From positions 22,249-86,248 of IMG/VR virus record IMGVR_UViG_3300020021_000004: DNA of 64,000 nt; one strand, given 5' to 3'. Made by a program: the position numbers and the translations under genes. The notes below the pieces were generated by a model. The model made no database searches and had not been told where the DNA came from. It saw only the letters and a list, made by a program, of their open reading frames with translations. Below are positions 53,751 through 64,000 of the stretch, in pieces (position 1 is the stretch's first letter; each line of letters begins with the position of its first letter). This DNA comes from a virus.

Positions 53751-55598
53751 TTAGAACCGTCCTTTGCCTCCGCCATCCTCGTCTTCGTCCTTTTCGGGCT
53801 TCAACTTGAGGTCCATGTACTTGGCGATGCGCTCGATGACATCGGTCTTCTCGGCCAACATACGGCCCACCTCGTTGTAGAGGGACCGAGAGATCTCGTT
53901 GAAAAGTGCGTCATTGACCGTGAACATGTCGTTCTCGATCTTCACGCGGGTGTCGTTCGGGTCGATGTTCAGCATCTCCAGGATGAGGTCGATCGAGATC
54001 GAACCCTTCGAGTAGAGGTTGTACAAGGCATCGAACGTGTCCTGGCTGTCTCGGAGCGGCAGGCGGGTGAAGCTGAGCTTGGGGAAAAGCACAACCTTTT
54101 GGCCCCACTCATCCTCTTCGACGAAGCCCATGCGCTCGGCCACCGGGCGGAACAGGTAGTCCTCCACATACTCCTGAAGGATTTCCCGCAAATGCAGGTA
54201 CCGCTGATTGATGACTTCGAGCTTCAGACGGTCGCCCGAATAGAGGCTCTCGCCGCTCATCAAACTCTCGGTCACGCCAAGACCTGCGAGCAAGCGACGC
54301 TCCGTTTGCTCGTATTCCGTCGAGAGATCGAGCAGGCGGTCTCGCGAGCCCATCTCCTCCCAGTGGATCTCATAGTTGGCGACGATCGAGTAGTCAGGGT
54401 CCACAAGTGACAAGTCGACCTGCTCACGAAGCTGATCGACGTCCGTATCAGAGAGCCCCTCGGCCCACACAATACGCTTGGGCGTCATCGCTCGGCTGGC
54501 GATCGAAGTCTGCGCCTGACGGAGCTTCTCACGGTAATACAGGGTGCGGAGACAACGGTTCAGGATCGACTGACCCAAAACCTCGTCGGCACTCTTGCTG
54601 CCCGTGAGGACATACGCAAAGGATCCCTCATCAGGATCCGTCCCGAGTGGGATGAGGCGGCCATTCTCGATGTGATCCCGCACTTCATGGGGGATCTCAT
54701 CTACCAACTCGGCGGCTGTAGGGTCACCGTTACGAGCCCTTTCGATCAAAGCCTTGTCACGATCGGACGGGATTAGTTCGAGGATCGACTTGTCGGTGTA
54801 CGAGAAGGTCGAAATCAGGACCTTGTCGATCGGCAAGACGATGAGTTTGTTCCAACCCTGGTAGTTCTTGCGATAGTACTCGAACTCCTTGTCGGCAGTG
54901 GTCTCGTCTTCTTCCCAAGTGGTGGTCTCACGCTCCCCCACGTTGCCGTCTTCATCCAAAACAGCTGTCTTGGTGATCCGCTTCTGGTGCCCCACCTCAA
55001 CGGGGGCTTGGACTTCACCGTCCTCCGCAAAGATGACCGCGATGCCGTCCAACCAAAAATGGTGGGTCATCGTAATCAGCTTCTGGAACAGCTTCACCCG
55101 CTTACACATCCGCTCGAAGCGATCGAGGATGTACTTGCCGTAGTTCTCTGGGCTGGAGAACCCTTTCGGAGCCTTGCGGGGCTTCGGGGCCGCCAGCCTG
55201 ACCTTCGAGAGGGGTAGTTCGGTGTGCAGGTCTAAAGCCTGCCCGACTAGTTCGTCCGAGTTGTAGAAGTGGCGGTAAATCTCCCGCCGCTCTCGAAGCG
55301 ACTGGGGTAGTTCGAGAAAATCGGGCGAAAGCTGCGGGCTGAAGAAGTTGCCCTGCGAACTCTGAACGGTGCCTCCACCGATACCGCCCATCCCTCCAAG
55401 GCCGATCCCGCTGCCACCCACGCCGCCAAAGCCGCCAAGCTGACCGCCGTTGGCCATGCGAAGCTGCTGACGAGCCAGCTGCTCCTTGTAGGTGAGCTGG
55501 TTCGTATAGTTGTGGGCCACGTAAGGACGGTGCTGACGAACCTGCGTTCGCACCAAATACTGTGGGGCTCCCTGTCGATTGGAGTAATTCTCAGGCAT
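53751..55598 (-). CDS. Portal protein
   Basis: Downstream of TerL; RHFYNSDELVGQALDLHTELPLS, GQSILNRCLRTL and LLAGLGVTESLMSG fit portal wing/stem/crown segments. Confidence 0.8.
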   Translation of the reverse strand: MPENYSNRQGAPQYLVRTQVRQHRPYVAHNYTNQLTYKEQLARQQLRMANGGQLGGFGGVGGSGIGLGGMGGIGGGTVQSSQGNFFSPQLSPDFLELPQSLRERREIYRHFYNSDELVGQALDLHTELPLSKVRLAAPKPRKAPKGFSSPENYGKYILDRFERMCKRVKLFQKLITMTHHFWLDGIAVIFAEDGEVQAPVEVGHQKRITKTAVLDEDGNVGERETTTWEEDETTADKEFEYYRKNYQGWNKLIVLPIDKVLISTFSYTDKSILELIPSDRDKALIERARNGDPTAAELVDEIPHEVRDHIENGRLIPLGTDPDEGSFAYVLTGSKSADEVLGQSILNRCLRTLYYREKLRQAQTSIASRAMTPKRIVWAEGLSDTDVDQLREQVDLSLVDPDYSIVANYEIHWEEMGSRDRLLDLSTEYEQTERRLLAGLGVTESLMSGESLYSGDRLKLEVINQRYLHLREILQEYVEDYLFRPVAERMGFVEEDEWGQKVVLFPKLSFTRLPLRDSQDTFDALYNLYSKGSISIDLILEMLNIDPNDTRVKIENDMFTVNDALFNEISRSLYNEVGRMLAEKTDVIERIAKYMDLKLKPEKDEDEDGGGKGRF

Positions 55599-56046
55599 TG
55601 CTTACTACCTCTCCGTACAGCTCGTCGAAAGCATCGTTCGTAGGCAGAACCATTCTTTCGACTTGCTTTTGAGCCCGGCGGGACTCAGCCCACTGACGCT
55701 CTTGAGCTTCTCTACGCTGATTCTCTTCTTTTTCGGCTTTCGCCCGGTCCAACATCCTATCCATAGAGGACGTCCGGCGCATGCCTTGTTGGGCCGCAGC
55801 CGCAAAACGTAGATGTGCGTTGGCAAAAACCACGAGACTTGAAGACGTCTCAGGGGATCGGCGAGCCCGACTCCGCATTTCGTCCGCCAAATAGGTCAAC
55901 TTTGTGAGGGAGGATTCGACATCTTTCCTCGCCTCTCTGATCTGCCCAATCAAAGCCTCGACCTCGCGAGAGGTCGTCTCCTCAGCTCTCTGTCGAAGAG
56001 CCTCCAAGGGATTGACTTGTGGGGGTCGGACTTCAGGCATGATCAC
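55591..56046 (-). CDS. Hypothetical coiled-coil protein
   Basis: Helical and charged; overlaps the portal start. Confidence 0.65.
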   Translation of the reverse strand: MIMPEVRPPQVNPLEALRQRAEETTSREVEALIGQIREARKDVESSLTKLTYLADEMRSRARRSPETSSSLVVFANAHLRFAAAAQQGMRRTSSMDRMLDRAKAEKEENQRREAQERQWAESRRAQKQVERMVLPTNDAFDELYGEVVSNA

Positions 56047-56052
56047 TCAATA

Positions 56053-56568
56053 TCACATACTGGTCTGAATACCGAGCCAGTTGTTGTTCAATGTCTTCGG
56101 GATCTGAGCTACGAAGCCAACGAAAAAAGCAGGAGCGAGCAAGCTTCCCGACAGCGTCAGTTCGTCTTCGTTCGTCCAATACCCTCGAAGGGAAAGGTAC
56201 AGGATGTCGTTCGGCTTGTAGGTGATGAGCACGAGAGGGCCGCTGAGGCGAGAAGCGTACGTGTACCTCTCGTACGTGGATGTCGAGATCAGATTCCCAC
56301 CAAAAAACATCGTAGCGTAACGATAGGTGGTCTGCTGGTCGGTCATCGCCGTGAAGCGATCCCCCGGTTCGGCTGAACCCCAAACCAAGAATCCCCCGTA
56401 AAAACCACCAGAATAGGTCACCACCCGGTCGTCTTGGGTGACACCCGTCCACTGCACGCCCTGCCCGCCTGCCCATCCGCCGGACACCATGGCGCTCGAC
56501 ACCGTCACGGTGGTGGAATCGCCTTTGAAGAAGACGATGCAGTCTCGAGTGCGGAAAATTTCGCTCAT
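56053..56568 (-). CDS. Decoration-like protein, tandem paralogue 3
   Basis: MSEIFRTRDC...YKPNDILYLSLRGYWTNE. Confidence 0.65.
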   Translation of the reverse strand: MSEIFRTRDCIVFFKGDSTTVTVSSAMVSGGWAGGQGVQWTGVTQDDRVVTYSGGFYGGFLVWGSAEPGDRFTAMTDQQTTYRYATMFFGGNLISTSTYERYTYASRLSGPLVLITYKPNDILYLSLRGYWTNEDELTLSGSLLAPAFFVGFVAQIPKTLNNNWLGIQTSM

Positions 56569-57086
56569 CAGATCGCCGTTTGGATTCCCAAGTAATTCTC
56601 GTTAAGGACGCTGGGGATCTGCACCACAGACCCCACGAAAAACCCGTTGGGCTTCCGAGGATCGTTGGCCAGTGTCCATTCATCCTCGTTCGTCCAAAAG
56701 CCTCGAAGCGAGAACAGAAGCCGCTGGCCCGTCGTGTACGTGATGGGTATGAGAGGCCCCGATTGCCGGGAAGCGTACGTGTATTTCTCGAAAGTCGTCG
56801 TCGAGATCAGCCATCCGCCCAGACACAGGACCGTGTAATTGTAGGTCGTCTGATTCTGGACGAAAGACACGTATTGGTCTGAAGGCTCGTTGGAGCCCCA
56901 GAGCATGAAACCGCCGTACAGGCCGTCCGAGTACGTGACCCGAAACTCGTCGACAGAAGAGTCGGTCCACATGGCGGCCTGACCGCCGAGCCAGCCGGTT
57001 TGATGCATGGCATCCGAAATAGTAACCGCGTACGAGTCCCCCTTGAAGAACACCACGCAGTCCCGAGTGCGAAAAATCTCGCTCAT
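56568..57086 (-). CDS. Decoration-like protein, tandem paralogue 2
   Basis: MSEIFRTRDC...YTTGQRLLFSLRGFWTNE. Confidence 0.65.
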   Translation of the reverse strand: MSEIFRTRDCVVFFKGDSYAVTISDAMHQTGWLGGQAAMWTDSSVDEFRVTYSDGLYGGFMLWGSNEPSDQYVSFVQNQTTYNYTVLCLGGWLISTTTFEKYTYASRQSGPLIPITYTTGQRLLFSLRGFWTNEDEWTLANDPRKPNGFFVGSVVQIPSVLNENYLGIQTAI

Positions 57087-57607
57087 ATGGACACCTGAAT
57101 GGTCAGGTACTGCTCAGTAGCGACCGTCGGACCCTGCATGACGAAGCCGATGTAGTAGTTGTTGGGCTTTCGGGGGTCGTTAGCTAGGGTCCACTCGTCC
57201 TCGTTCGTCCAAAAGCCTCGAAGCGAGAACACCAGACGGTCGCTCGCATTGTAGGTGATGAGCACGAGAGGCCCCGATTGCCGGGAAGCGTACGTGTATT
57301 TCTCATACGAGGTCGTCATGATGATCCAACCCCCAGCACCAGCCGTTGCAAACTTGTACGCCGGCTGGTTGCGGGTCATCGCCGTGAAGCGATCCGAGGA
57401 CTCATCCGAACCCCAAAGAAGGAAGCCCGCGTAGTAGCCATCCGAGTACGTGACCAAGAACTCGTCTTTGGACGAACCTACCCATTGGACGCCCTGCCCG
57501 CCGCTCCAGCCACCTTTGGCCATAGTGTCGTCCACAGTGACCGGATAAGCGTCACCCTTGTACAGGATGACGCAATCCCGGGTGCGGAACTGCTCGGGCG
57601 TGGCCAT
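57083..57607 (-). CDS. Decoration-like protein, tandem paralogue 1
   Basis: QFRTRDC...YNASDRLVFSLRGFWTNE. Confidence 0.65.
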   Translation of the reverse strand: MATPEQFRTRDCVILYKGDAYPVTVDDTMAKGGWSGGQGVQWVGSSKDEFLVTYSDGYYAGFLLWGSDESSDRFTAMTRNQPAYKFATAGAGGWIIMTTSYEKYTYASRQSGPLVLITYNASDRLVFSLRGFWTNEDEWTLANDPRKPNNYYIGFVMQGPTVATEQYLTIQVSI

Positions 57608-57858
57608 CAGATCTCTTCCTCTTCAGGCTCGTCCGGCTTCTTCACCTTGCCCCAGTTGGTGATCACCTTCTCCAGAGTCGTGATCTGCTTGATGTCCCCG
57701 TGGATGAACGCATCCCATTGGCCCCCGAGCTTTCGGAAGACCAAGCGGATGATCATGTAGTCCCGAGGACGGATGGTCTGGGTAATGCCCAGATGGTCCG
57801 CAAACTGACGGATCACACGATTGGCGAAGACCAATGGGACTGCGGGTGCGTCGTCCAT
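57607..57858 (-). CDS. Hypothetical protein (83 aa)
   Basis: ATG 57858 overlaps the TerL TAA (MDDAPAVP). Confidence 0.6.
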   Translation of the reverse strand: MDDAPAVPLVFANRVIRQFADHLGITQTIRPRDYMIIRLVFRKLGGQWDAFIHGDIKQITTLEKVITNWGKVKKPDEPEEEEI

Positions 57859-59858
57859 TATCTCGACCTTGGGCGCATACCTAGAGTGCTTCGATCCCCG
57901 ATGCCATGGTGACGAGCACGGCTCATCTGGTACCGTTGAGGGGTCATCCCGCCCGAAGAGACGGCAGGGCGGTAGGGCGTGCCGTGAGCGGTGTGCTTCT
58001 GGTTCAACAGCTGGTCGTGTGAAAGCCAAATCGCTCGCACCAACGCATCGCTCAAGTCGTCGTGCGCTCCAGCCTTCTGGGGAGCCGCTACCAACACCGT
58101 ATTCTTCGAGACGTGGTTGGCCTGTAGGGTCAACAGCTCGGCAATGAGCGGGGAGTGCCGGCCTCCATCACCCTTGGCTCGCTCAGGGAGGGGCCAGTCG
58201 TAAAGCTCAAGCTTCTTGTCGTACATGAGCATCTTCGCCGCCTGATAGATCTTGCTGGTCTGATCTCGCGTGAAGAACTCGCTCTTGAATTGACGGAGCC
58301 CTCGCTTGTGAAGCGCTTGCTCCAAAGGAATGCCGTTCCACCTGTCGAAGATAGCGGATGAAATGTGGAACTTCTTAGTAAGGGCCACGATCCAGTTGGC
58401 GATCTCATCGAAATCAAGGCGCTCTACATCTTTCAGGACCTTGGCGTAGTCGGTGGGGTACCGATTTTCGAGATGAGGATTCGCCTCTCGCCAGTCCATC
58501 CCTGCATACCAAACCTCATGGTAGTCGAGGATGACCCGGCTATCCTCGATGTGAGTGATTGCAATAGCGGTACCGTCCCCAATGAGGCCCACGTCGATCC
58601 CCATCTGGTGGGGCGTCCGCGGAGTGGCCATGATCTTGGGGCGGGCCGCAGGGTTGATGCACTCCGTGAGGTCCGTCTCTCGTTCGATCCAACCTCGTGC
58701 CTGATCCGAGAATTGAGCCCCGTGCTCAACCATGAATGAGGTGGGATTCTCGTGGTACTTCTCCTTGTAGTACGAGCTGGCGACCGTCGGGTTGATCTCC
58801 CAAGTCGGGGCCTGAATGGCGAGGATGTTGTACGCTCCCTCACCGCCCCGCATCGCAAGGTCGAACTTCTCGTAAAACTTGCCACTCTTACCTAGGGGTG
58901 ACGAAATCAGGATGATCCGGCTGTCGACCGGTACTTGCTTACCCGTCCGAGAGTCGATCGCCGGGCGACCCGTCTCGGGGTTCTTCCTCGAGTAGGCGGC
59001 AGCTGACGGCACGACAGCGTTGTAGATCTCGTCGGCCGAACTGTTGCCCTTGTCCTGAAAGTGGGCCACCTCATCAAGGATGATGACAATGTTACCTGCA
59101 CCACGAAGACCCTTGGCGATGCAGCTCTTGAAGGTGACGCGAAGGCTCGCCTTGCCGTTGAAGCTGACGAACTTACCATTGTCCTGACGTGACGTGGGAC
59201 CGAACTTCTCGATGTCGTAGGGCGTGCGAAAGTTCACGTGCGACAGAGTGTTGTTGGTCACGAAAGGCGTGAAGTAGTTGCACTTCGCCAAGTGAGTCGT
59301 CACCTCACCGAACAACAAACCGGCCTGCTCCTTGTCGGTAGCGACCGAGATGATCTGAATACGATTACCGTTCGGCAACCCGTAGTACTCTTGAGGGTTG
59401 TACAAGTTGAGGAGGCGGTAAACCTCGTAGCTAGCAAAGATGCCCGAGAGGGTCGTCTTGCCTGCTCGACGACCGATCGCGAGCACTAGTTCCCGACGCT
59501 CGTGGTCCTGCTCCCCGATGTTGCAACGACCCTCGTCGAAAAGGAACTTCAGGTACTCCCGTTCCGTGAACTCGTACCGGATCTTCGTGTTGAACATGTC
59601 CGGGATCTGGATACGCTTGAGCGGGTCCTCGGGCAGTGTCTCGTCGAGCGGCAAGTTGTAATAGAGCTTGACCAGGAAGCGCTGTGCGGGGAACAGCTTC
59701 ATGTCCAGCCCCCACGGCTGCTCGATGTAGTCCAGCACACTGAAGATGCGTGTGGGGCCGCCTTCGCTGCCGCCCGCTGCCGCTTCACCCGCCTGAAGGC
59801 GGATCTGTTGGCCCACCTGGCGGGCTAAATGGGCGATGCCCTTTTTGTTGTCGGCCAC
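57858..59858 (-). CDS. terL: Terminase large subunit
   Basis: Walker A GRRAGKT, Walker B IILDE, motif III ISSP, RNase H-like nuclease MGIDVG and HDDLSDA. Confidence 0.92.
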   Translation of the reverse strand: MADNKKGIAHLARQVGQQIRLQAGEAAAGGSEGGPTRIFSVLDYIEQPWGLDMKLFPAQRFLVKLYYNLPLDETLPEDPLKRIQIPDMFNTKIRYEFTEREYLKFLFDEGRCNIGEQDHERRELVLAIGRRAGKTTLSGIFASYEVYRLLNLYNPQEYYGLPNGNRIQIISVATDKEQAGLLFGEVTTHLAKCNYFTPFVTNNTLSHVNFRTPYDIEKFGPTSRQDNGKFVSFNGKASLRVTFKSCIAKGLRGAGNIVIILDEVAHFQDKGNSSADEIYNAVVPSAAAYSRKNPETGRPAIDSRTGKQVPVDSRIILISSPLGKSGKFYEKFDLAMRGGEGAYNILAIQAPTWEINPTVASSYYKEKYHENPTSFMVEHGAQFSDQARGWIERETDLTECINPAARPKIMATPRTPHQMGIDVGLIGDGTAIAITHIEDSRVILDYHEVWYAGMDWREANPHLENRYPTDYAKVLKDVERLDFDEIANWIVALTKKFHISSAIFDRWNGIPLEQALHKRGLRQFKSEFFTRDQTSKIYQAAKMLMYDKKLELYDWPLPERAKGDGGRHSPLIAELLTLQANHVSKNTVLVAAPQKAGAHDDLSDALVRAIWLSHDQLLNQKHTAHGTPYRPAVSSGGMTPQRYQMSRARHHGIGDRSTLGMRPRSR

Positions 59859-59861
59859 GAT

Positions 59862-60710
59862 TCACACCCGGGCCTCATACTCAAGACCGAAGCTCCGAAG
59901 ACCCAGATGGTCCCGCTCCCTTGAGTAAAAGTCTGAAGGAATGGTCGGGTTAGCATCCTGCGTAGGGATCCTCAGGGTAAGAGCACCCCGCTGTTTAGCC
60001 TGACGATAGAAATCCCTGAACGTCTTCGAGCCATCGGAGGTCGTCGTGATGGTGATCCGGCCCCCGCAGGGCGCCACTATGCTGTGGATGAGCGGGAGGT
60101 CCTGAAAATAGGCGGCATTGTCGAGCACCACTGATGATGCACGAAGGCCCCTGAGATCCTTACCCTGGGCGGACTTGAACATAGCCCTGACCCGGCCCCC
60201 GCCTTCACCTTCGAAGTTCAGGTAAGAAGCAGTCCGGTTCTTCAAGTACGGCTGAAGGTGAGATTCCGCCAAACACGCGGCATAAACGTCAAGGTGAACA
60301 CCGGCCGAAGCCCTGTCGTGAGAGACAGAGATCACACCTCTGGGCTCAGATCCTTGAGTCCGTAGGAGTTTGAGGGTCTCGTACAACTGGACCGTCTGGC
60401 CTAGCCAAGACATCCCGCCACGACGGCCCACAATGAGCACCGCCTCTTGCGAACCCTGACGAGCGGGCGTGCAACGACCTGTCCGCTCCAAGCGAACCAA
60501 GTACTGACGCTCCCGAGCATCTAGTTCGAGACCGTACATCATCTTCAGTATGAAGCGCTGTGCGGGAAACAGCTTCGGAACCCCAAGAGCACCTGAGTCC
60601 ACTAGTTCGATGATGGAGGGTTCGGAGGATTCGGGCTTCACGGAGAAGCCTGCCACCAAAGGCAATGCTGAGGTGAGCCCCAGCATCTGCATGAACGAAC
60701 GGCGGTTCAT
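59862..60710 (-). CDS. Degenerate TerL-ATPase paralogue with twin-arginine-like N-terminus (282 aa)
   Basis: ATG 60710 coupled to the upstream TGA. MNRRSFMQMLGLTSALPLVAG, then collinear with the TerL ATPase but GRRGGMS and VVLDN; no nuclease domain. Confidence 0.8.
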   Translation of the reverse strand: MNRRSFMQMLGLTSALPLVAGFSVKPESSEPSIIELVDSGALGVPKLFPAQRFILKMMYGLELDARERQYLVRLERTGRCTPARQGSQEAVLIVGRRGGMSWLGQTVQLYETLKLLRTQGSEPRGVISVSHDRASAGVHLDVYAACLAESHLQPYLKNRTASYLNFEGEGGGRVRAMFKSAQGKDLRGLRASSVVLDNAAYFQDLPLIHSIVAPCGGRITITTTSDGSKTFRDFYRQAKQRGALTLRIPTQDANPTIPSDFYSRERDHLGLRSFGLEYEARV

Positions 60711-61345
60711 AGGTTCTGAGCCTTTTCCTCCCACCCTTCGAGCTTGGTCTCCAAACGGTTGAAGAGAAGGTCGATCATCTCGGGGGAAAGCACATCACCG
60801 GCCGCTGCTCGAACGGTCTCCAAAAAGAACGCAAAGATCTTCTGGAACTTCTCACCCTTGAGGTCGATCATCGTAGCGCCCAAGCGACGAATCTCTAGTT
60901 CGAGATGGGCCACTTCACGCAAAGCCGCAATACGGCGGCTCGACATCTGCGACGTGTCCTTGCCGTACTTTTCCTCTTCGATGCGCTGGAAGTGCAGGGC
61001 CGCCGATTCACGGGCGATCTCCTCCTTCACCCTCTGAAGGGTCTCGATCGATTCTTGACGCTCACCCGTCGAACGTACGAGGGGGTCCGCGTTGATGAAC
61101 GCAGTCTTCTGGCGAATCATCTCCGCGTGATAGATGAGGTCGTCCCTTGTGGGTTCCGTTCGGATCTTCTTCGGGCGGCCGGGTCCTCGTTTGATGGCTC
61201 CGGTTGCCGCATGGATGGGCACCACCGTGCCATTGGCGTGAGCCAACGGTCGCTGAGAATCGACGGCCTTCTGCTCTTGAGCCTTCTTGGCCTCAGCTTC
61301 AGCGTCAGCCTCGTCATCGTTGTAGATCTCGGTATCGTCGGACAT
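60707..61345 (-). CDS. Candidate terminase small subunit
   Basis: Upstream of TerL; AT-hook KRGPGRPKK followed by oligomerisation-like helices. Positional inference. Confidence 0.5.
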   Translation of the reverse strand: MSDDTEIYNDDEADAEAEAKKAQEQKAVDSQRPLAHANGTVVPIHAATGAIKRGPGRPKKIRTEPTRDDLIYHAEMIRQKTAFINADPLVRSTGERQESIETLQRVKEEIARESAALHFQRIEEEKYGKDTSQMSSRRIAALREVAHLELEIRRLGATMIDLKGEKFQKIFAFFLETVRAAAGDVLSPEMIDLLFNRLETKLEGWEEKAQNL

Positions 61346-61347
61346 GG

Positions 61348-61755
61348 CTACTTCTTCTTCCCTTCTTCGGTTCCCTCACCGCCGTTGCCCTCTGTCCGGA
61401 TCAAATACTGGGACAGGTTGTAGGCAACGTCGTAACCCTTGTCTTTCGGGACTTGCTTATCCAAAGCGTTGGACAAATCCTTGCCCGATTGAACAAGGCT
61501 GAGGACCCCAGTGTTGTTGGGGGTCGCAGGAAACACGTCTTTTGGCTGAATATCTCGGCTATGAGGCTTGATGATGTCCTCACCCTTGGTTTTCGAAACG
61601 CCGTTGTCTTTGACCACGTCACGGTCGATGCCCTTAGGCTTGTTGATGGGCGTGACGTTCTGTTTGGCCTTCTGGCGAGCACCAGGAACCTGATCGGCCC
61701 GACGGTGGCGGTAAGCCGCCACCACCCGACGAACGGACTCGATGCTGTTCTTCAC
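61348..61755 (-). CDS. Basic putative internal head protein
   Basis: Starts ...VRRVVAAYRHRRA, a variant of the RLVAR(F/Y) motif. Confidence 0.6.
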   Translation of the reverse strand: MKNSIESVRRVVAAYRHRRADQVPGARQKAKQNVTPINKPKGIDRDVVKDNGVSKTKGEDIIKPHSRDIQPKDVFPATPNNTGVLSLVQSGKDLSNALDKQVPKDKGYDVAYNLSQYLIRTEGNGGEGTEEGKKK

Positions 61756-63740
61756 AGTTTGATCTCGTGACTCCCGAACTGGATCGAAGTGCTGAACTTC
61801 TGGCCTTCGGGGTTGAATTCGATCGAAGCCTCGTGATGCTGGAGCTGGTACTCCTGCATCATCGTCAAGCCGTTGTTGGCCATCAAAGCCTCAGCATTGG
61901 GCATCGTATTAGCGGGACCCGACGCCAGCATGGCCTGCTGTTCGGCGTACTTGTCGATGTAGGGCGGCTCCACCACGAGCTGCTTGTTGAGCACCGAGCA
62001 ATGCCCAATACGGGTCTGGTGCACGCAAGAGCTGCACTTGTCGCCGACCTTGGCATACTTCACGGCCCCACGTGAACGATGGAGGCTAGCGGCCCGCTGG
62101 CAGCCCTTGCCGTAGTCGTCGTACACAGTGGGGTCGATATATTTGAACCCCTGGAGGCCCTGCTCAGCCAAGACAGCTCGAAGCTCCGGTCCCGTCGCCA
62201 AGAGGGCTCGGGGATCGAACGCCTGACGGAGAGCCATCAAGAGATCGGTCCCGTAAAGGCCCTCGTTCAGGTACTCGGCCGCCTTCTTGAGGATATTGCG
62301 CTTCGTCAGCTCACCGGCGGTAACCTGATGAGAGCTTCCGTAGAAAGCGGTCTCGATGCTGCCCCGCTGCGACTGCTGCGTGATGCTAGCTACCGGCATC
62401 GAGGAGGCGTTGTGGATGTTCTTGAGAGCCTCGACAGGTGTGGACCCCCACTTCATCCGGGACGCTTCCTGGGGCAGCTTGCCAGCGATCCGCTGCTCGT
62501 CCACGACCGCTTGCACGGTTTCGTTCGTGTACAGGTCGGTCGCGTTGGCGACCAGCTTGCGGCCGTACATCATGCAGCGGCCGACCTTGTTGAAGATGCA
62601 AGAGCTGCACTTCTCGCCCGCCACAACCGCACGAACCTTCGAAGCGTGACGGTTGATGTAGTCGGCGCCCACGCGGCAGTCGTCGAACGAGTCCTGCGTC
62701 AGGTAGACGGCCCCGTACAAGCCCGCTTCCTTGTAAGTGGGACCCCACTCGGCCTTCGTGGCTTCCAGATCCCGGAGGTCGAACGCCAAACGAAGCCCGT
62801 GCGCTAGTTCAGACTCCGTCCGACCCTTGAGCATCTCCTTGCGGAGGAACGCGATAACGGGACGGGCCTTGAGGGCCGCCATCTTCTGCTGGGACTCCAG
62901 ATCCCGCTTCTTGGTCAAGCTCGAAGCCGCAATCAGCACCTGCTGAGTGTCCACCTTGGCTTGAGGCGGGGCGTACTGCTGATGGCCACTGAAAGCCTGG
63001 CCAACCGCCTCTTGAGAGGCCAGGAAAGCCCTTTGAATGCGCTCACGAGGCGTACCGGCCGAAGCTTGAACGCCCATACCCTTCGCCTGTTGGGTGCGCT
63101 CGACATCCGAAGCCAGATTGTCCGTGTACGGGACATCCATTTGGATCTGCTTGTGGAAGACCCCGCAATGGCTTGCCCCGTTCGTCACGTGACGGTGGCT
63201 GCAATCCCCGCAAGCCGTCTTGGCCACTACGAACTTGGCTTCAGGTGCGTACCTTCGCACGAAGTCCGACGCCTCTTTGGAGCCACGGTTGCAATTCGGG
63301 AAGTCCTGAGCGGCCACGTAGTAGCGACCCAAGAGTCCTCGTTCTGCGAACACCTCCGCCAACGCTGTCTTGGCGTTCGAAAGAGCTGTCCCGTCGTAGC
63401 GGGTCGCCAGAATACTTCGGATCTTCGTAGGATCGGTCGTCTGCATGATCGCCAAACGGGCGGTTCGCAGAAGGCCCGGTGAGGCCATCTCCATCGCCAA
63501 ACGACCATGAACTTCCGACAAGTCGCCCATCGTCCTAGGAGCCCCTGTGTTGGGCACGAAGTTCGAGGCCGGTTCGTCTCGATGACGCCAAAGCGCTTCG
63601 AGGTCCGGGACCACGTCGAGATTCTGCTTGGGCAGGGTGTCCAGCTCGCGATAAGCCTTCGCATCCACGTCCAACCAATCGAGGTTGGAAACGGCGGAGC
63701 CCTCTTTCAAGTAGTCCGTGAGGTCACCTAGTTCAGACAT
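61752..63740 (-). CDS. Protein with three Cys4 repeat domains (662 aa)
   Basis: ATG 63740 (MSELGDL). Three copies of GLxGxxY...C...CxxC...C. Confidence 0.7.
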   Translation of the reverse strand: MSELGDLTDYLKEGSAVSNLDWLDVDAKAYRELDTLPKQNLDVVPDLEALWRHRDEPASNFVPNTGAPRTMGDLSEVHGRLAMEMASPGLLRTARLAIMQTTDPTKIRSILATRYDGTALSNAKTALAEVFAERGLLGRYYVAAQDFPNCNRGSKEASDFVRRYAPEAKFVVAKTACGDCSHRHVTNGASHCGVFHKQIQMDVPYTDNLASDVERTQQAKGMGVQASAGTPRERIQRAFLASQEAVGQAFSGHQQYAPPQAKVDTQQVLIAASSLTKKRDLESQQKMAALKARPVIAFLRKEMLKGRTESELAHGLRLAFDLRDLEATKAEWGPTYKEAGLYGAVYLTQDSFDDCRVGADYINRHASKVRAVVAGEKCSSCIFNKVGRCMMYGRKLVANATDLYTNETVQAVVDEQRIAGKLPQEASRMKWGSTPVEALKNIHNASSMPVASITQQSQRGSIETAFYGSSHQVTAGELTKRNILKKAAEYLNEGLYGTDLLMALRQAFDPRALLATGPELRAVLAEQGLQGFKYIDPTVYDDYGKGCQRAASLHRSRGAVKYAKVGDKCSSCVHQTRIGHCSVLNKQLVVEPPYIDKYAEQQAMLASGPANTMPNAEALMANNGLTMMQEYQLQHHEASIEFNPEGQKFSTSIQFGSHEIKL

Positions 63741-64000
63741 CGTTCGTCCCTGTGAGATGGCGTTGAGGCCAGTTGTGTAGGGGGTCGTCCCTATAGTCGT
63801 GTGTGGTGTCATCGTAGCGGACATAGGGGGTCGACATGTCCTGCGTCACGTAGTCGGTGTTCATCAATCCTGGAGAATACTCACCCTGAGGAGTCGCCTC
63901 GCCCGGGAGATCCGACTGCGCCATTTGGGTGTTCACCAAGTTGCCCTTGTCCCCTTGGTAATAATCGGACCGGGCCACCGGGCTCTCGGTGTCGTTGGGT
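63733..64000 (-). CDS. Partial hypothetical protein, 5' end outside the window
   Basis: The frame stays open to the window edge. Confidence 0.55.
   Translation of the reverse strand, partial: PNDTESPVARSDYYQGDKGNLVNTQMAQSDLPGEATPQGEYSPGLMNTDYVTQDMSTPYVRYDDTTHDYRDDPLHNWPQRHLTGTNDV

What the first reader, a model, noticed from the sequence alone, without database searches (positions are those of the whole stretch)
59862..60710. Catalytically dead pseudo-terminase with a Tat-like signal, inserted between candidate TerS and TerL
Seen: collinear with the neighbouring TerL ATPase (KLFPAQRF.LK; ER.YL..L...GRC; ISV..D...AG; FKS...K.LRG; PT...NPT....Y), so it is probably a local duplication. Walker A GRRAGKT has become GRRGGMS, Walker B DE has become DN, and the nuclease domain is absent. 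The ORF is nevertheless intact and translationally coupled, and has gained MNRRSFMQMLGLTSALPLVAG (RRxF plus hydrophobic helix). Known: Avs/AVAST STAND NTPases sense phage terminases. Inference: it could be a decoy for terminase-sensing immunity, possibly membrane-tethered, a dominant-negative regulator of the packaging motor, or a membrane anchor for packaging.
Basis: partly seen in the sequence, partly recalled or inferred. Interest (0 to 1): 0.78.

Follow-up and report, generated by a model that had tools for sequence, protein, structure and literature searches.

The report
Exported-looking dead copy of terminase motor
A very large soil phage carries, right in front of its DNA-packaging enzyme, a conserved but fast-evolving half-copy of that enzyme's motor domain that has lost its ATP-burning residues and carries what looks like an export signal, so a packaging-motor fold may have been reused outside the cytoplasm.

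Summary
Window 59862-60710 (-) encodes a 282-aa protein homologous to the ATPase half of the adjacent TerL (BLASTP E 9e-24). Its AF2 model has pLDDT 92 and its best PDB matches are TerL ATPase domains. Walker A Lys is Met, Walker B Glu is Asn, and there is no nuclease domain.

It is a real gene. Four full-length homologues (47-60% identity) keep an invariant MNRRxF start plus a hydrophobic stretch. It evolves much faster than TerL: 54% against 91-92% identity for what is probably the same pair of phages.

It is absent from close relatives, where the upstream gene abuts TerL.

It belongs to a large, apparently undescribed pool of short TerL-ATPase-only proteins. 97 of the 152 proteins examined are under 400 aa and about half are catalytically degenerate. 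Twin-arginine-type leaders recur in that pool, almost always with degenerate motifs.

Best reading: a Tat-exported, non-catalytic TerL-fold protein acting in the envelope. Export is predicted only; no experiment bears on it. The Avs-decoy and motor-regulator ideas remain untested and fit the leader less well. The 'recent local duplication' idea is not supported. Novelty: a new variant of a known kind, the closest precedent being T4 vs.8.

The parts
59862..60710 (-). Gene for the 282-aa TerL-ATPase-domain-only paralogue (P0001), stop codon included
   Evidence: ORF list and translation; BLASTP to TerL E 9e-24; AF2 pLDDT 92.3, pTM 0.86; Foldseek top hits are TerL ATPase domains, 4znl E 3e-10; four full-length homologues at 47-60% identity
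60630..60710 (-). Codons 1-27: twin-arginine-type leader (RR at 3-4, F6, hydrophobic stretch, small residues before a polar linker)
   Evidence: MNRRxF invariant in 5 of 5 orthologues; hydrophobicity screen; low-confidence, non-globular region 1-30 in the AF2 model; lies outside the structural match, which starts at residue 28. The Tat HMMs do not hit P0001 itself but hit 4 of 12 leader-bearing family members
60408..60428 (-). Degenerate Walker A (residues 95-101; Lys replaced by Met)
   Evidence: Motif table from profile alignment; Met at this position in 6 of 8 members of the orthologue clade (P0001, P0004, P0006-P0009); Lys kept only in P0005 within the five orthologues
60114..60131 (-). 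Degenerate Walker B (residues 194-199; Asp kept, catalytic Glu replaced by Asn)
   Evidence: DN in 4 of 5 orthologues, DE only in P0005
57858..59858 (-). Full-length TerL (P0002, 666 aa) with intact Walker A/B and nuclease half; GTG start 3 nt after the paralogue's stop
   Evidence: PHROG phrog_2 E 1.2e-20; tblastn to huge-phage TerLs; junction sequence
60707..61345 (-). Upstream 212-aa all-helical protein (P0003), the conserved left neighbour of TerL in relatives; candidate TerS by position only
   Evidence: Homologue ends just before TerL in 18 of 31 related loci; alignment A3; no family hit; low-confidence model
60707..60710 (-). ATGA stop/start overlap between P0003 and the paralogue. P0003 here ends two residues earlier than all 8 aligned homologues.

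Best explanation
The ORF is a functional, lineage-specific gene. It encodes the ATPase-domain fold of a large terminase that no longer works as an ATPase: in this copy the Walker A Lys is Met and the Walker B Glu is Asn. Its 27-residue N-terminal leader has the layout of a twin-arginine (Tat) signal peptide.

Proposed mechanism. The gene is co-transcribed and translationally coupled with the packaging genes, so it is made late. It folds in the cytoplasm and is handed to the host Tat translocon. The leader is cleaved, and the roughly 255-residue domain then acts in the periplasm or envelope by binding something, not by catalysis. Candidate ligands are nucleic acid, a nucleotide-like ligand in the conserved but re-tuned pocket, or an envelope or competitor-phage component. 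Its patchy distribution and fast evolution suggest a conflict or timing role rather than a core packaging role.

Shown: homology, fold, loss of catalytic residues, conservation of the ORF and the leader, insertion between two genes that are adjacent in relatives, and recurrence of such leaders in related short TerL-like proteins.

Inferred: inactivity as an ATPase, export by Tat, cleavage, late expression, and everything about the role after export.
For: (1) Real gene. Four homologues (P0004-P0007) cover 100% of the length at 47-60% identity with only small indels. By my rough arithmetic (not a call), neutral drift to that divergence would give about 10 stop-creating substitutions per pair.

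(2) Fold. AF2 pLDDT 92.3. Foldseek hits P74-26, T4 gp17 and HK97 TerL ATPase domains, E 3e-10 to 8e-8. The Atlas gives TM 0.79 to TerL clusters over residues 28-282.

(3) Leader. MNRRxF plus L10 and G11 are invariant in 5 of 5 orthologues, so the leader is better conserved than the body (mean column identity 70%). Residues 1-30 are non-globular.

(4) Recurrence. 9 of the 150 listed profile hits have RRx[FL] plus a hydrophobic leader ahead of the TerL-like domain; with the window protein and two more orthologues that makes 12 distinct proteins. Pfam TAT_signal hits 4 of these 12 (best E 3.9e-4) and TIGR01409 hits 4 of 12 (best E 5e-5).

(5) Leader goes with dead motifs. 11 of the 12 leader-bearing proteins lack the Walker A Lys/Ser-Thr or the Walker B Glu. 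One search counted 13 (these 12 plus P0008) as 1 canonical and 12 degenerate, against 38 canonical and 45 degenerate among short leaderless ones (Fisher p 0.013, not corrected for relatedness). This fits a site of action without ATP.

(6) Cysteine. Content is lower in leader-bearing members (median 0.36% against 1.53%). Mann-Whitney p is 0.0006, or 0.04 with one value per group.

(7) Accessory and fast-evolving. It is absent from three near-complete relatives and from LR745208. It is 54% identical between two phages whose TerL exteins are 91-92% identical.
Against: No signal-peptide predictor was available. The Tat HMMs do not hit P0001 itself at E <= 10, and among the five orthologues TIGR01409 hits only 2, at best E 0.089.

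The residues after RRxF (M-Q) depart from the usual L-K, and the signal-peptidase site is only guessed from small residues.

One orthologue (P0005) keeps both Lys and Asp-Glu, and P0010 keeps the full Walker A. So export and loss of catalysis are not strictly linked.

About half of the leaderless short relatives are degenerate too, so loss of catalysis does not need export.

The host, and therefore its envelope type and Tat system, is unknown.

A late packaging operon is an odd place for an envelope protein.

No expression data exist. No periplasmic ligand for a TerL fold is known. No dN/dS could be computed because no orthologue DNA could be fetched.
Confidence: 0.42

Rival explanations
1. 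Cytoplasmic or membrane-face partner of the packaging machinery. The dead ATPase domain joins or caps TerL rings, or binds the upstream TerS-like protein or the portal. It would then act as a regulator, dominant-negative brake or assembly factor. The RR-hydrophobic N-terminus would serve only to park it at the inner membrane and would not be translocated.
For: The gene sits inside the terminase operon and is coupled on both sides. It keeps the N-terminal subdomain, the P-loop glycines and arginines, the Walker B Asp and the C-motif-like T/S-S of TerL. An independent leaderless 282-aa TerL-N paralogue occupies the same slot in another huge phage (L014), so a packaging-linked role for such paralogues is plausible.
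Against: The hydrophobic stretch is about 12-13 residues long with Pro, Gly, Ser and Thr, too short for a stable anchor. With RR on the N side, the domain would face outward. The gene is dispensable in relatives with a 63-72% identical TerL. It evolves several times faster than TerL, which is unlike a tightly fitted motor subunit.
Confidence: 0.22
2. Decoy against terminase-sensing immunity (Avs1-3, Upx). The dead TerL-like domain would soak up or mis-assemble sensors that recognise the TerL ATPase domain.
For: EcAvs2 and Upx are activated by the TerL ATPase domain alone, and the T4 TerL-ATPase-like paralogue vs.8 also triggers EcAvs2 (PMC13601566, passages read). Fast evolution and patchy distribution fit an arms-race gene.
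Against: A conserved export-type leader would remove the protein from the cytoplasm, where these sensors act. EcAvs2 recognition uses the ATP bound in the TerL Walker site through a bridging ATP, and P0001 lacks the Walker A Lys. A TerL-like fold would be expected to trigger such sensors rather than silence them, as vs.8 does. No defence or anti-defence family was tested against it here.
Confidence: 0.08
3. The leader targets the host Tat receptor itself. A folded passenger with a strong RR leader would occupy or jam TatBC late in infection, altering envelope biogenesis or lysis, and would have no role of its own in the periplasm.
For: The same evidence for a Tat-type leader. The passenger's active site is free to decay, which fits a passenger that matters only as bulk.
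Against: The body is conserved in specific motifs: invariant P49, Q51, R52, G95-R97, D197 and others in 5 of 5 orthologues. That argues for a function of the domain itself. There is no precedent that I know of (recall).
Confidence: 0.05
4. A decaying tandem duplicate of the TerL 5' half with no function.
For: Loss of catalytic residues. A position next to TerL, as expected for a tandem duplicate.
Against: Five intact, length-conserved orthologues at 47-60% identity, with an invariant leader and invariant core motifs. More distant intact relatives carry the same Met at the Walker A position (P0008, P0009). The model folds confidently.
Confidence: 0.03

Closest known systems
Large terminase (TerL) N-terminal ATPase domain, e.g. 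Thermus phage P74-26 TerL (PDB 4ZNL), T4 gp17, HK97 TerL
   Same: Same fold and collinear sequence motifs, including the upstream P-x-Q-R-F motif, the P-loop backbone G-R-R-x-G, the Walker B Asp, a C-motif-like T/S-S and the closing E-Y-G-A motif.
   Different: No nuclease domain. Walker A Lys is Met and the catalytic Glu is Asn. It has an added N-terminal RR-hydrophobic leader. It is dispensable in close relatives and evolves several times faster than the true TerL.
T4 vs.8, an uncharacterised stand-alone TerL-ATPase-like paralogue (PMC13601566; passages read, supplementary figures not seen)
   Same: A phage-encoded, separate, ATPase-domain-only relative of the phage's own TerL, of unknown function.
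   Different: The paper says vs.8 keeps Walker A and B and mentions no export leader. Homology between vs.8 and P0001 was not tested here because no vs.8 sequence was at hand.
Tat (twin-arginine) signal peptides of bacterial exported proteins (Pfam PF10518, TIGR01409)
   Same: N-terminal position, RRxF core, short and weakly hydrophobic h-region with Gly/Pro/Ser/Thr, and a basic residue in the c-region of most orthologues. The HMMs hit 4 of 12 leader-bearing family members.
   Different: P0001 itself is below detection by both HMMs. No cofactor-binding passenger of the usual kind is present. The passenger is a phage motor domain, which my paper searches did not find described.
T4 antiholin RI (PMC8385771; only the start of the abstract seen in a search listing)
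   Same: A phage-encoded protein sent to the periplasm by a cleavable signal. It is believed to sense DNA from superinfecting phage there, so it is a precedent for an exported phage protein with a nucleic-acid-related role.
   Different: Unrelated fold, Sec-type export, and a known partner (holin T). The resemblance is only an analogy for the boldest reading.

Membership tests
Functional large terminase (TerL) | ASCE ATPase fold of TerL type | tested here: met
   AF2 model plus Foldseek against PDB; top hits are TerL ATPase domains. BLASTP to own TerL E 9e-24.
Functional large terminase (TerL) | Walker A lysine (G-x4-G-K-S/T) | tested here: not met
   Met in place of Lys in P0001, and in 4 of 5 orthologues.
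Functional large terminase (TerL) | Walker B catalytic Glu after Asp | tested here: not met
   D-N in P0001, and in 4 of 5 orthologues.
Functional large terminase (TerL) | C-terminal RNase-H-fold nuclease domain | tested here: not met
   The protein ends at the position equivalent to TerL residue ~382. 282 aa against 666 aa.
Tat-exported proteins | N-terminal twin-arginine motif (S/T-R-R-x-F-L-K-like) | tested here: met
   N-R-R-x-F is invariant in 5 of 5 orthologues. Positions +2 and +3 after F are M-Q in P0001 but V-K or L-R in the orthologues.
Tat-exported proteins | Weakly hydrophobic h-region and a c-region with small residues at -3/-1 | tested here: inconclusive
   The best 12-residue window has a Kyte-Doolittle mean of 1.6-2.5. 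Candidate small-residue sites were read by eye only; no cleavage predictor was available.
Tat-exported proteins | Match to curated Tat signal profiles (PF10518, TIGR01409) | tested here: inconclusive
   P0001: no hit at E <= 10. Orthologues: 2 of 5, best E 0.089. Wider leader-bearing set: 4 of 12, best E 5e-5 and 3.9e-4.
Tat-exported proteins | Tat-dependent, RR-dependent export | not testable with these tools
   Needs a fractionation or reporter assay in tat+ and tat- hosts.
Stand-alone TerL-ATPase-like paralogues (T4 vs.8 type) | Separate gene encoding only the TerL-like ATPase domain, alongside a full TerL | tested here: met
   G000 holds only this ORF and the TerL.
Stand-alone TerL-ATPase-like paralogues (T4 vs.8 type) | Conserved Walker A and B (as reported for vs.8) | tested here: not met
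   The vs.8 feature is taken from PMC13601566 passages.
Small terminase (TerS), for the upstream gene P0003 | Recognisable TerS family or fold | tested here: inconclusive
   No Pfam or PHROG hit. AF2 pLDDT 59, all-helical, unfit for a fold search. Only its conserved position directly upstream of TerL is shown.

The most novel reading that the evidence does not exclude
A DNA-packaging motor domain has been recruited as an exported, non-catalytic sensor or blocker. After Tat export, the TerL-fold protein would bind DNA (or a nucleotide) that reaches the periplasm when a competing phage tries to inject. It would thereby exclude the competitor or delay lysis, making it a functional analogue of T4 RI built from a terminase. 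The many short, half-degenerate TerL-like proteins of huge phages would then be a toolbox of re-purposed motor domains, and the twin-arginine-bearing ones would be its extracytoplasmic branch.
Probability: 0.1. Interest if true: 0.85.

Novelty: new variant of a known kind. Interest (0 to 1): 0.62.

Why it matters
TerL is the hallmark enzyme of tailed phages and a prime target of bacterial immune sensors. This finding shows that one group of 300-480 kb soil and sediment phages holds a large pool of stand-alone TerL motor-domain proteins. About half of them have lost catalytic residues, and a subset carries export-type leaders. If export is real, it would be the first case I could find of a terminase fold working outside the cytoplasm. 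It would also be a clear example of a pseudoenzyme born from a core virion-assembly enzyme. Even if export is wrong, the family is a practical hazard: these proteins can be mis-called as TerL in phage phylogenies and marker-gene counts. They are also candidate players in terminase-sensing immunity. The test is simple: a leader-reporter export assay with an RR-to-KK control.

Tried and rejected
Scans of viral, metagenome and genome contigs with profile A1 returned only full TerLs or other short paralogues at <=32% identity and no orthologue DNA. So no dN/dS was computed. Single-protein scans for two distant leader-bearing members (P0010, P0035) found nothing.

Expression and microdiversity. No RNA holder was listed; only two runs of one soil sample hold the stretch, and that sample is possibly the source. 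Their contigs laid on 57800-61400 show no differences.

Binding. One complex job was run, P0003 residues 60-212 with P0001 residues 28-282. It gave no verdict (score 0.00, mark 0.32, controls not folded), which is neither for nor against binding.

TerS test. The P0003 model was too poor (pLDDT 59) for a fold search.

Independent origins of the leader. The free tree needs 6 changes of the leader label. It is largely unresolved, with 34 of 67 inner branches open, and an AU test does not reject a single leader-bearing clade (p 0.116). I therefore claim neither multiple gains nor one origin.

Capsid-targeting or prohead-protease leader. This idea was prompted by earlier notes. The two MYSYDRR leaders in the window have no hydrophobic stretch and no likeness to this leader, so I rejected it as the main reading.

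Lipoprotein. There is no Cys after the hydrophobic stretch in any orthologue.

Recent local duplication. Not supported, though an old tandem duplication cannot be excluded.

Promoter and terminator scan of 55500-64000. Nothing above chance: 0 promoters, and 7 terminator-like sites against 6.3 expected.

Literature. There were no papers for 'pseudo-terminase'. Judged from titles and abstract starts in the listings, none of the 15 listed for terminase + twin-arginine + phage, the 12 listed for twin-arginine + phage-encoded + periplasm or the 12 listed for terminase-like / ATPase / huge phages describes such a protein. Term searches in PMC7824862, in the bioRxiv preprint 10.64898/2026.10.24.761521 and in PMC13673990 found no relevant passage. 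Supplements are closed, and Supplementary Figs 15-16 of PMC13601566 on vs.8 may bear on the comparison.
Full report
**What is there.** The window is the right-hand 64 kb of an 86,248-bp IMG/VR virus record that CheckV rates as 18% complete. The protein database also holds the same protein on a 404,268-bp contig. All long ORFs lie on the minus strand. Around the finding the order is: a 690-aa protein, a 135-aa ORF, P0003 (212 aa, 60707-61345), the ORF in question (P0001, 282 aa, 59862-60710), TerL (P0002, 666 aa, 57858-59858), three tandem ~172-aa paralogues, a 151-aa ORF, the portal (53751-55598; phrog_16240, E 7e-23), and further on a prohead protease. The nearest TerLs in GenBank phages are a 485-kb uncultured phage (LR745208.1, 44.5% identity) and the 309-kb Tunturiibacter phage Tunturi_5 (27.7%). 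This is the packaging and head module of a very large soil phage (soil metagenome).

**Checking the observation.** P0001 aligns collinearly with the N-terminal ATPase half of its neighbour TerL: residues 46-281 against 54-382, 27% identity, E 9e-24. Pfam gives no hit, and PHROGs gives only weak TerL hits (phrog_2, E 1.7e-4).
- An AF2 model built on a 67-row alignment is confident (pLDDT 92.3, pTM 0.86) from residue 31 to the end. Residues 1-30 are of low confidence.
- Foldseek against the PDB puts TerL ATPase domains first: P74-26 4znl at E 3e-10, then T4 gp17 and HK97. The ESM Atlas model agrees, with TM 0.79 to TerL clusters over residues 28-282.
- Walker A reads G-R-R-G-G-M-S against G-R-R-A-G-K-T in TerL, and Walker B reads D-N against D-E. 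The protein stops where the ATPase domain stops.
- The ATG overlaps the stop of P0003 (ATGA), and the TerL GTG follows the stop after 3 nt.

**It is a gene under constraint.** A search of 5.8 billion proteins found four homologues (P0004-P0007) of 282-287 aa. They are 47-60% identical over 100% of the length and come from separate metagenome contigs of 1.2 to 324 kb. Their alignment has only small indels. 92 columns are invariant, including M1, N2, R3, R4, F6, L10 and G11 of the leader. Also invariant are P49, Q51, R52, the P-loop G95, R96, R97 and G99, and the Walker B D197.
- By my own rough arithmetic (not a call), drifting neutrally to about 50% identity would introduce around ten stop codons per pair. 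Five intact copies therefore argue strongly for selection on the reading frame.
- No orthologue DNA could be fetched, so dN/dS was not computed.
- The constraint is much weaker than on TerL. The TerL on a 323,560-bp NCBI contig (P0157, which carries an intein) is 91-92% identical to P0002 in both exteins. The pseudo-terminase on a contig of the same length and source (P0005) is only 54% identical to P0001. That the two lie on one contig is an inference from those labels.

**It is an insertion specific to a sub-lineage.** In 18 of the 31 related loci fetched from IMG/VR and JGI, the P0003 homologue ends just upstream of the TerL match. These loci have TerL at 63-72% identity. Several are the same contig in two collections, and at least 8 are distinct by sequence. 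tblastn finds no second TerL-like stretch in any of them.
- Whole-record profile searches find only the TerL frame in G001 (416 kb, 87% complete), in G002 and G003 (398 and 411 kb, both with terminal repeats and rated complete), and in LR745208.
- In LR745208 the same intergenic slot holds a TnpB-type transposase gene.
- P0003 in the window ends two residues earlier than all 8 aligned homologues, exactly where the new gene's ATG overlaps it.

**Origin.** P0001 is no closer to its own TerL (27%, E 9e-24) than to foreign short proteins such as P0012 (31%, E 6e-33) or P0010 (E 4.5e-31). In the profile search, the first full-length TerL of the window's type ranks 15th, behind 14 shorter proteins. 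The IQ-TREE tree of 70 domains is star-like, with 8 of 67 inner branches starred and 34 open, so the donor cannot be named. An old tandem duplication remains possible. Another huge phage (L014, a 304-kb record) has an independent, leaderless 282-aa TerL-N paralogue in the same slot, with Walker A intact.

**A wider family.** The profile of the five orthologues, run against 1.84 billion cluster representatives, gave 829 hits at E <= 1e-3, 220 at <= 1e-10 and 8 at <= 1e-30.
- Across the 152 proteins examined (the 150 listed hits plus the window protein and two further orthologues), 97 are shorter than 400 aa.
- 85 of these 97 reach the end of the ATPase-domain profile. Of those, 57 stop within 15 residues after it and 25 carry a 16-60-residue tail, several of which look like CxxC zinc ribbons. 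They are domain-limited proteins, not random fragments.
- Two that I could inspect (L020, L031) have no nuclease domain after them within 1.3-1.6 kb.
- Catalytic status in the profile alignment: among the 84 short proteins without a leader, 38 are canonical, 45 are degenerate and 1 is not aligned. Among proteins of 500 aa or more, 29 are canonical and 9 are scored degenerate. By my reading of the motif strings, 6 of those 9 are intein-junction misalignments.

Stand-alone, often 'dead' TerL motor domains are thus common in this phage group. The only precedent I found in print is T4 vs.8, a TerL-ATPase-like paralogue with intact Walker motifs and unknown function (PMC13601566, passages).

**The leader.** A screen for RR within the first residues followed by a hydrophobic 12-mer flagged 13 of the 155 stored proteins. 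These are 12 distinct sequences plus one cluster mate: the five orthologues and P0009, P0010, P0033, P0035, P0111, P0126 and P0138.
- In each, the leader is an extension of about 25-35 residues ahead of the point where leaderless relatives begin.
- Pfam TAT_signal hits 4 of the 12 (best E 3.9e-4). TIGR01409 hits 4 of 12 (best E 5e-5). One protein also hits the Rieske Tat-signal model.
- P0001 itself is not hit, and among the five orthologues only 2 are, weakly. The direct profile evidence therefore concerns relatives, and for P0001 the case rests on the invariant RRxF and the overall layout.
- P0008 groups with the orthologues, but its recorded N-terminus lacks RR, possibly because of a short gene call.
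- 11 of the 12 leader-bearing proteins have lost the Walker A Lys/Ser-Thr or the Walker B Glu; only P0005 keeps both. One search counted P0008 in this class too, giving 1 canonical against 12 degenerate. Against the short leaderless set this gives Fisher p 0.013, uncorrected for relatedness.
- Leader-bearing proteins are also poorer in cysteine: 0.36% against 1.53%, p 0.0006, or p 0.04 with one value per group. This is a soft pointer to life outside the cytoplasm.
- On the free tree the leader label needs 6 changes, but an AU test does not reject a single leader-bearing clade (p 0.116). I cannot say whether the leader was gained once or several times.

**How it most likely works.** I take the leader at face value. 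The protein is made late with the packaging genes and folds in the cytoplasm; a pre-folded RecA-like domain is what Tat, not Sec, can carry. It is exported by the host Tat system, trimmed, and then acts by binding rather than by hydrolysis in a compartment that has no ATP. The pocket is not simply rotting. Met at the Lys position recurs in 6 of 8 clade members, and the adenine-side P-x-Q-R motif, the P-loop glycines and arginines and the Walker B Asp stay invariant. This suggests a re-tuned ligand site. Fast evolution and patchy presence point to a conflict or timing role.
- My confidence is about 0.9 for 'real constrained gene', about 0.97 for the fold, about 0.8 for 'not an ATPase' and about 0.55 for export.
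- For the whole chain it is 0.42.

**Rivals.**
- Cytoplasmic or membrane-face regulator of the motor (0.22). This fits the operon position, but it fits poorly with a 12-13-residue h-region, with dispensability in relatives and with the fast rate.
- Avs/Upx decoy (0.08). This is weakened by the export leader, by the lost ATP-binding lysine (EcAvs2 reads the ATP-bound site) and by the fact that vs.8 triggers rather than blocks EcAvs2.
- Tat-jamming (0.05) and plain decay (0.03) are less likely still.

**Novelty and verdict.** The searches named under Tried and rejected found no description of a terminase-fold protein with a twin-arginine leader, nor of this pool of short, degenerate TerL-like proteins. 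I class it as a new variant of a known kind (stand-alone TerL-ATPase paralogues, pseudoenzymes). Interest is 0.62: the finding is surprising to a specialist and cheap to test, but export, expression and function are all still predictions.

Noticed in passing
L014:7093-7941 (+), next to TerL at L014:7932-9728 (IMG/VR record of 304,025 bp): An independent 282-aa TerL-ATPase-only paralogue sits in the same slot, between a 178-aa upstream gene and TerL. It has no leader, Walker A is intact, and the Walker B Asp is replaced. It is 29% identical to its own TerL.
   Followed up: partly
L017, L018, L019, L032 (TerL match split at residue ~135); proteins P0157, P0051 and about 30 others of ~1100 aa: Many TerLs of this phage group carry an intein with a LAGLIDADG domain inserted right after the Walker A G-K (PF14528 and PF14890 on P0157). 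This causes false 'degenerate P-loop' calls in profile alignments.
   Followed up: partly
L001:4605-5906 (+) (LR745208.1): A TnpB / IS605 OrfB-type gene (PF01385 E 3e-26, PF07282, PF12323) lies between the P0003 homologue and TerL. This is the same intergenic slot that holds the pseudo-terminase in the window, and a second TnpB lies just after TerL. The slot seems to tolerate insertions.
   Followed up: partly
L031:792-1700 (+) and L031:2667-3293 (-): A solo 302-aa degenerate TerL-like gene (P0084) lies about 1 kb from a gene whose product starts with a ribosomal protein L15-type domain (PF00828, E 1e-16) followed by a Lys/Ala-rich region and an unknown C-terminal part.
   Followed up: no
Proteins P0017, P0019, P0049, P0067, P0087, P0098, P0104, P0120: Several short TerL-like proteins end in CxxC-type tails in place of the nuclease domain, suggesting a zinc-ribbon variant of the family.
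   Followed up: no
window 56053-57607 (-): Three tandem ~172-aa paralogues lie between TerL and the portal, joined by overlapping or abutting stops and starts. None has a Pfam or PHROG hit.
   Followed up: no
window 61752-63824 (-): A 690-aa protein with repeated Cys-rich segments lies two genes upstream of P0003 and has no family hit. A 614-aa ORF with a similar Cys motif lies in a comparable position upstream of the P0003 homologue in LR745208. Homology between them was not tested.
   Followed up: no
window 61180-61203 (-) (P0003 residues ~48-55) and homologues in L028 and L015: P0003 and its two closest homologues carry an R-G-x-G-R-P-[KR]-K, AT-hook-like motif. The other six homologues have a different Gly/Arg-rich stretch at that point. 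This could be the DNA-contacting part of a TerS-like protein.
   Followed up: no
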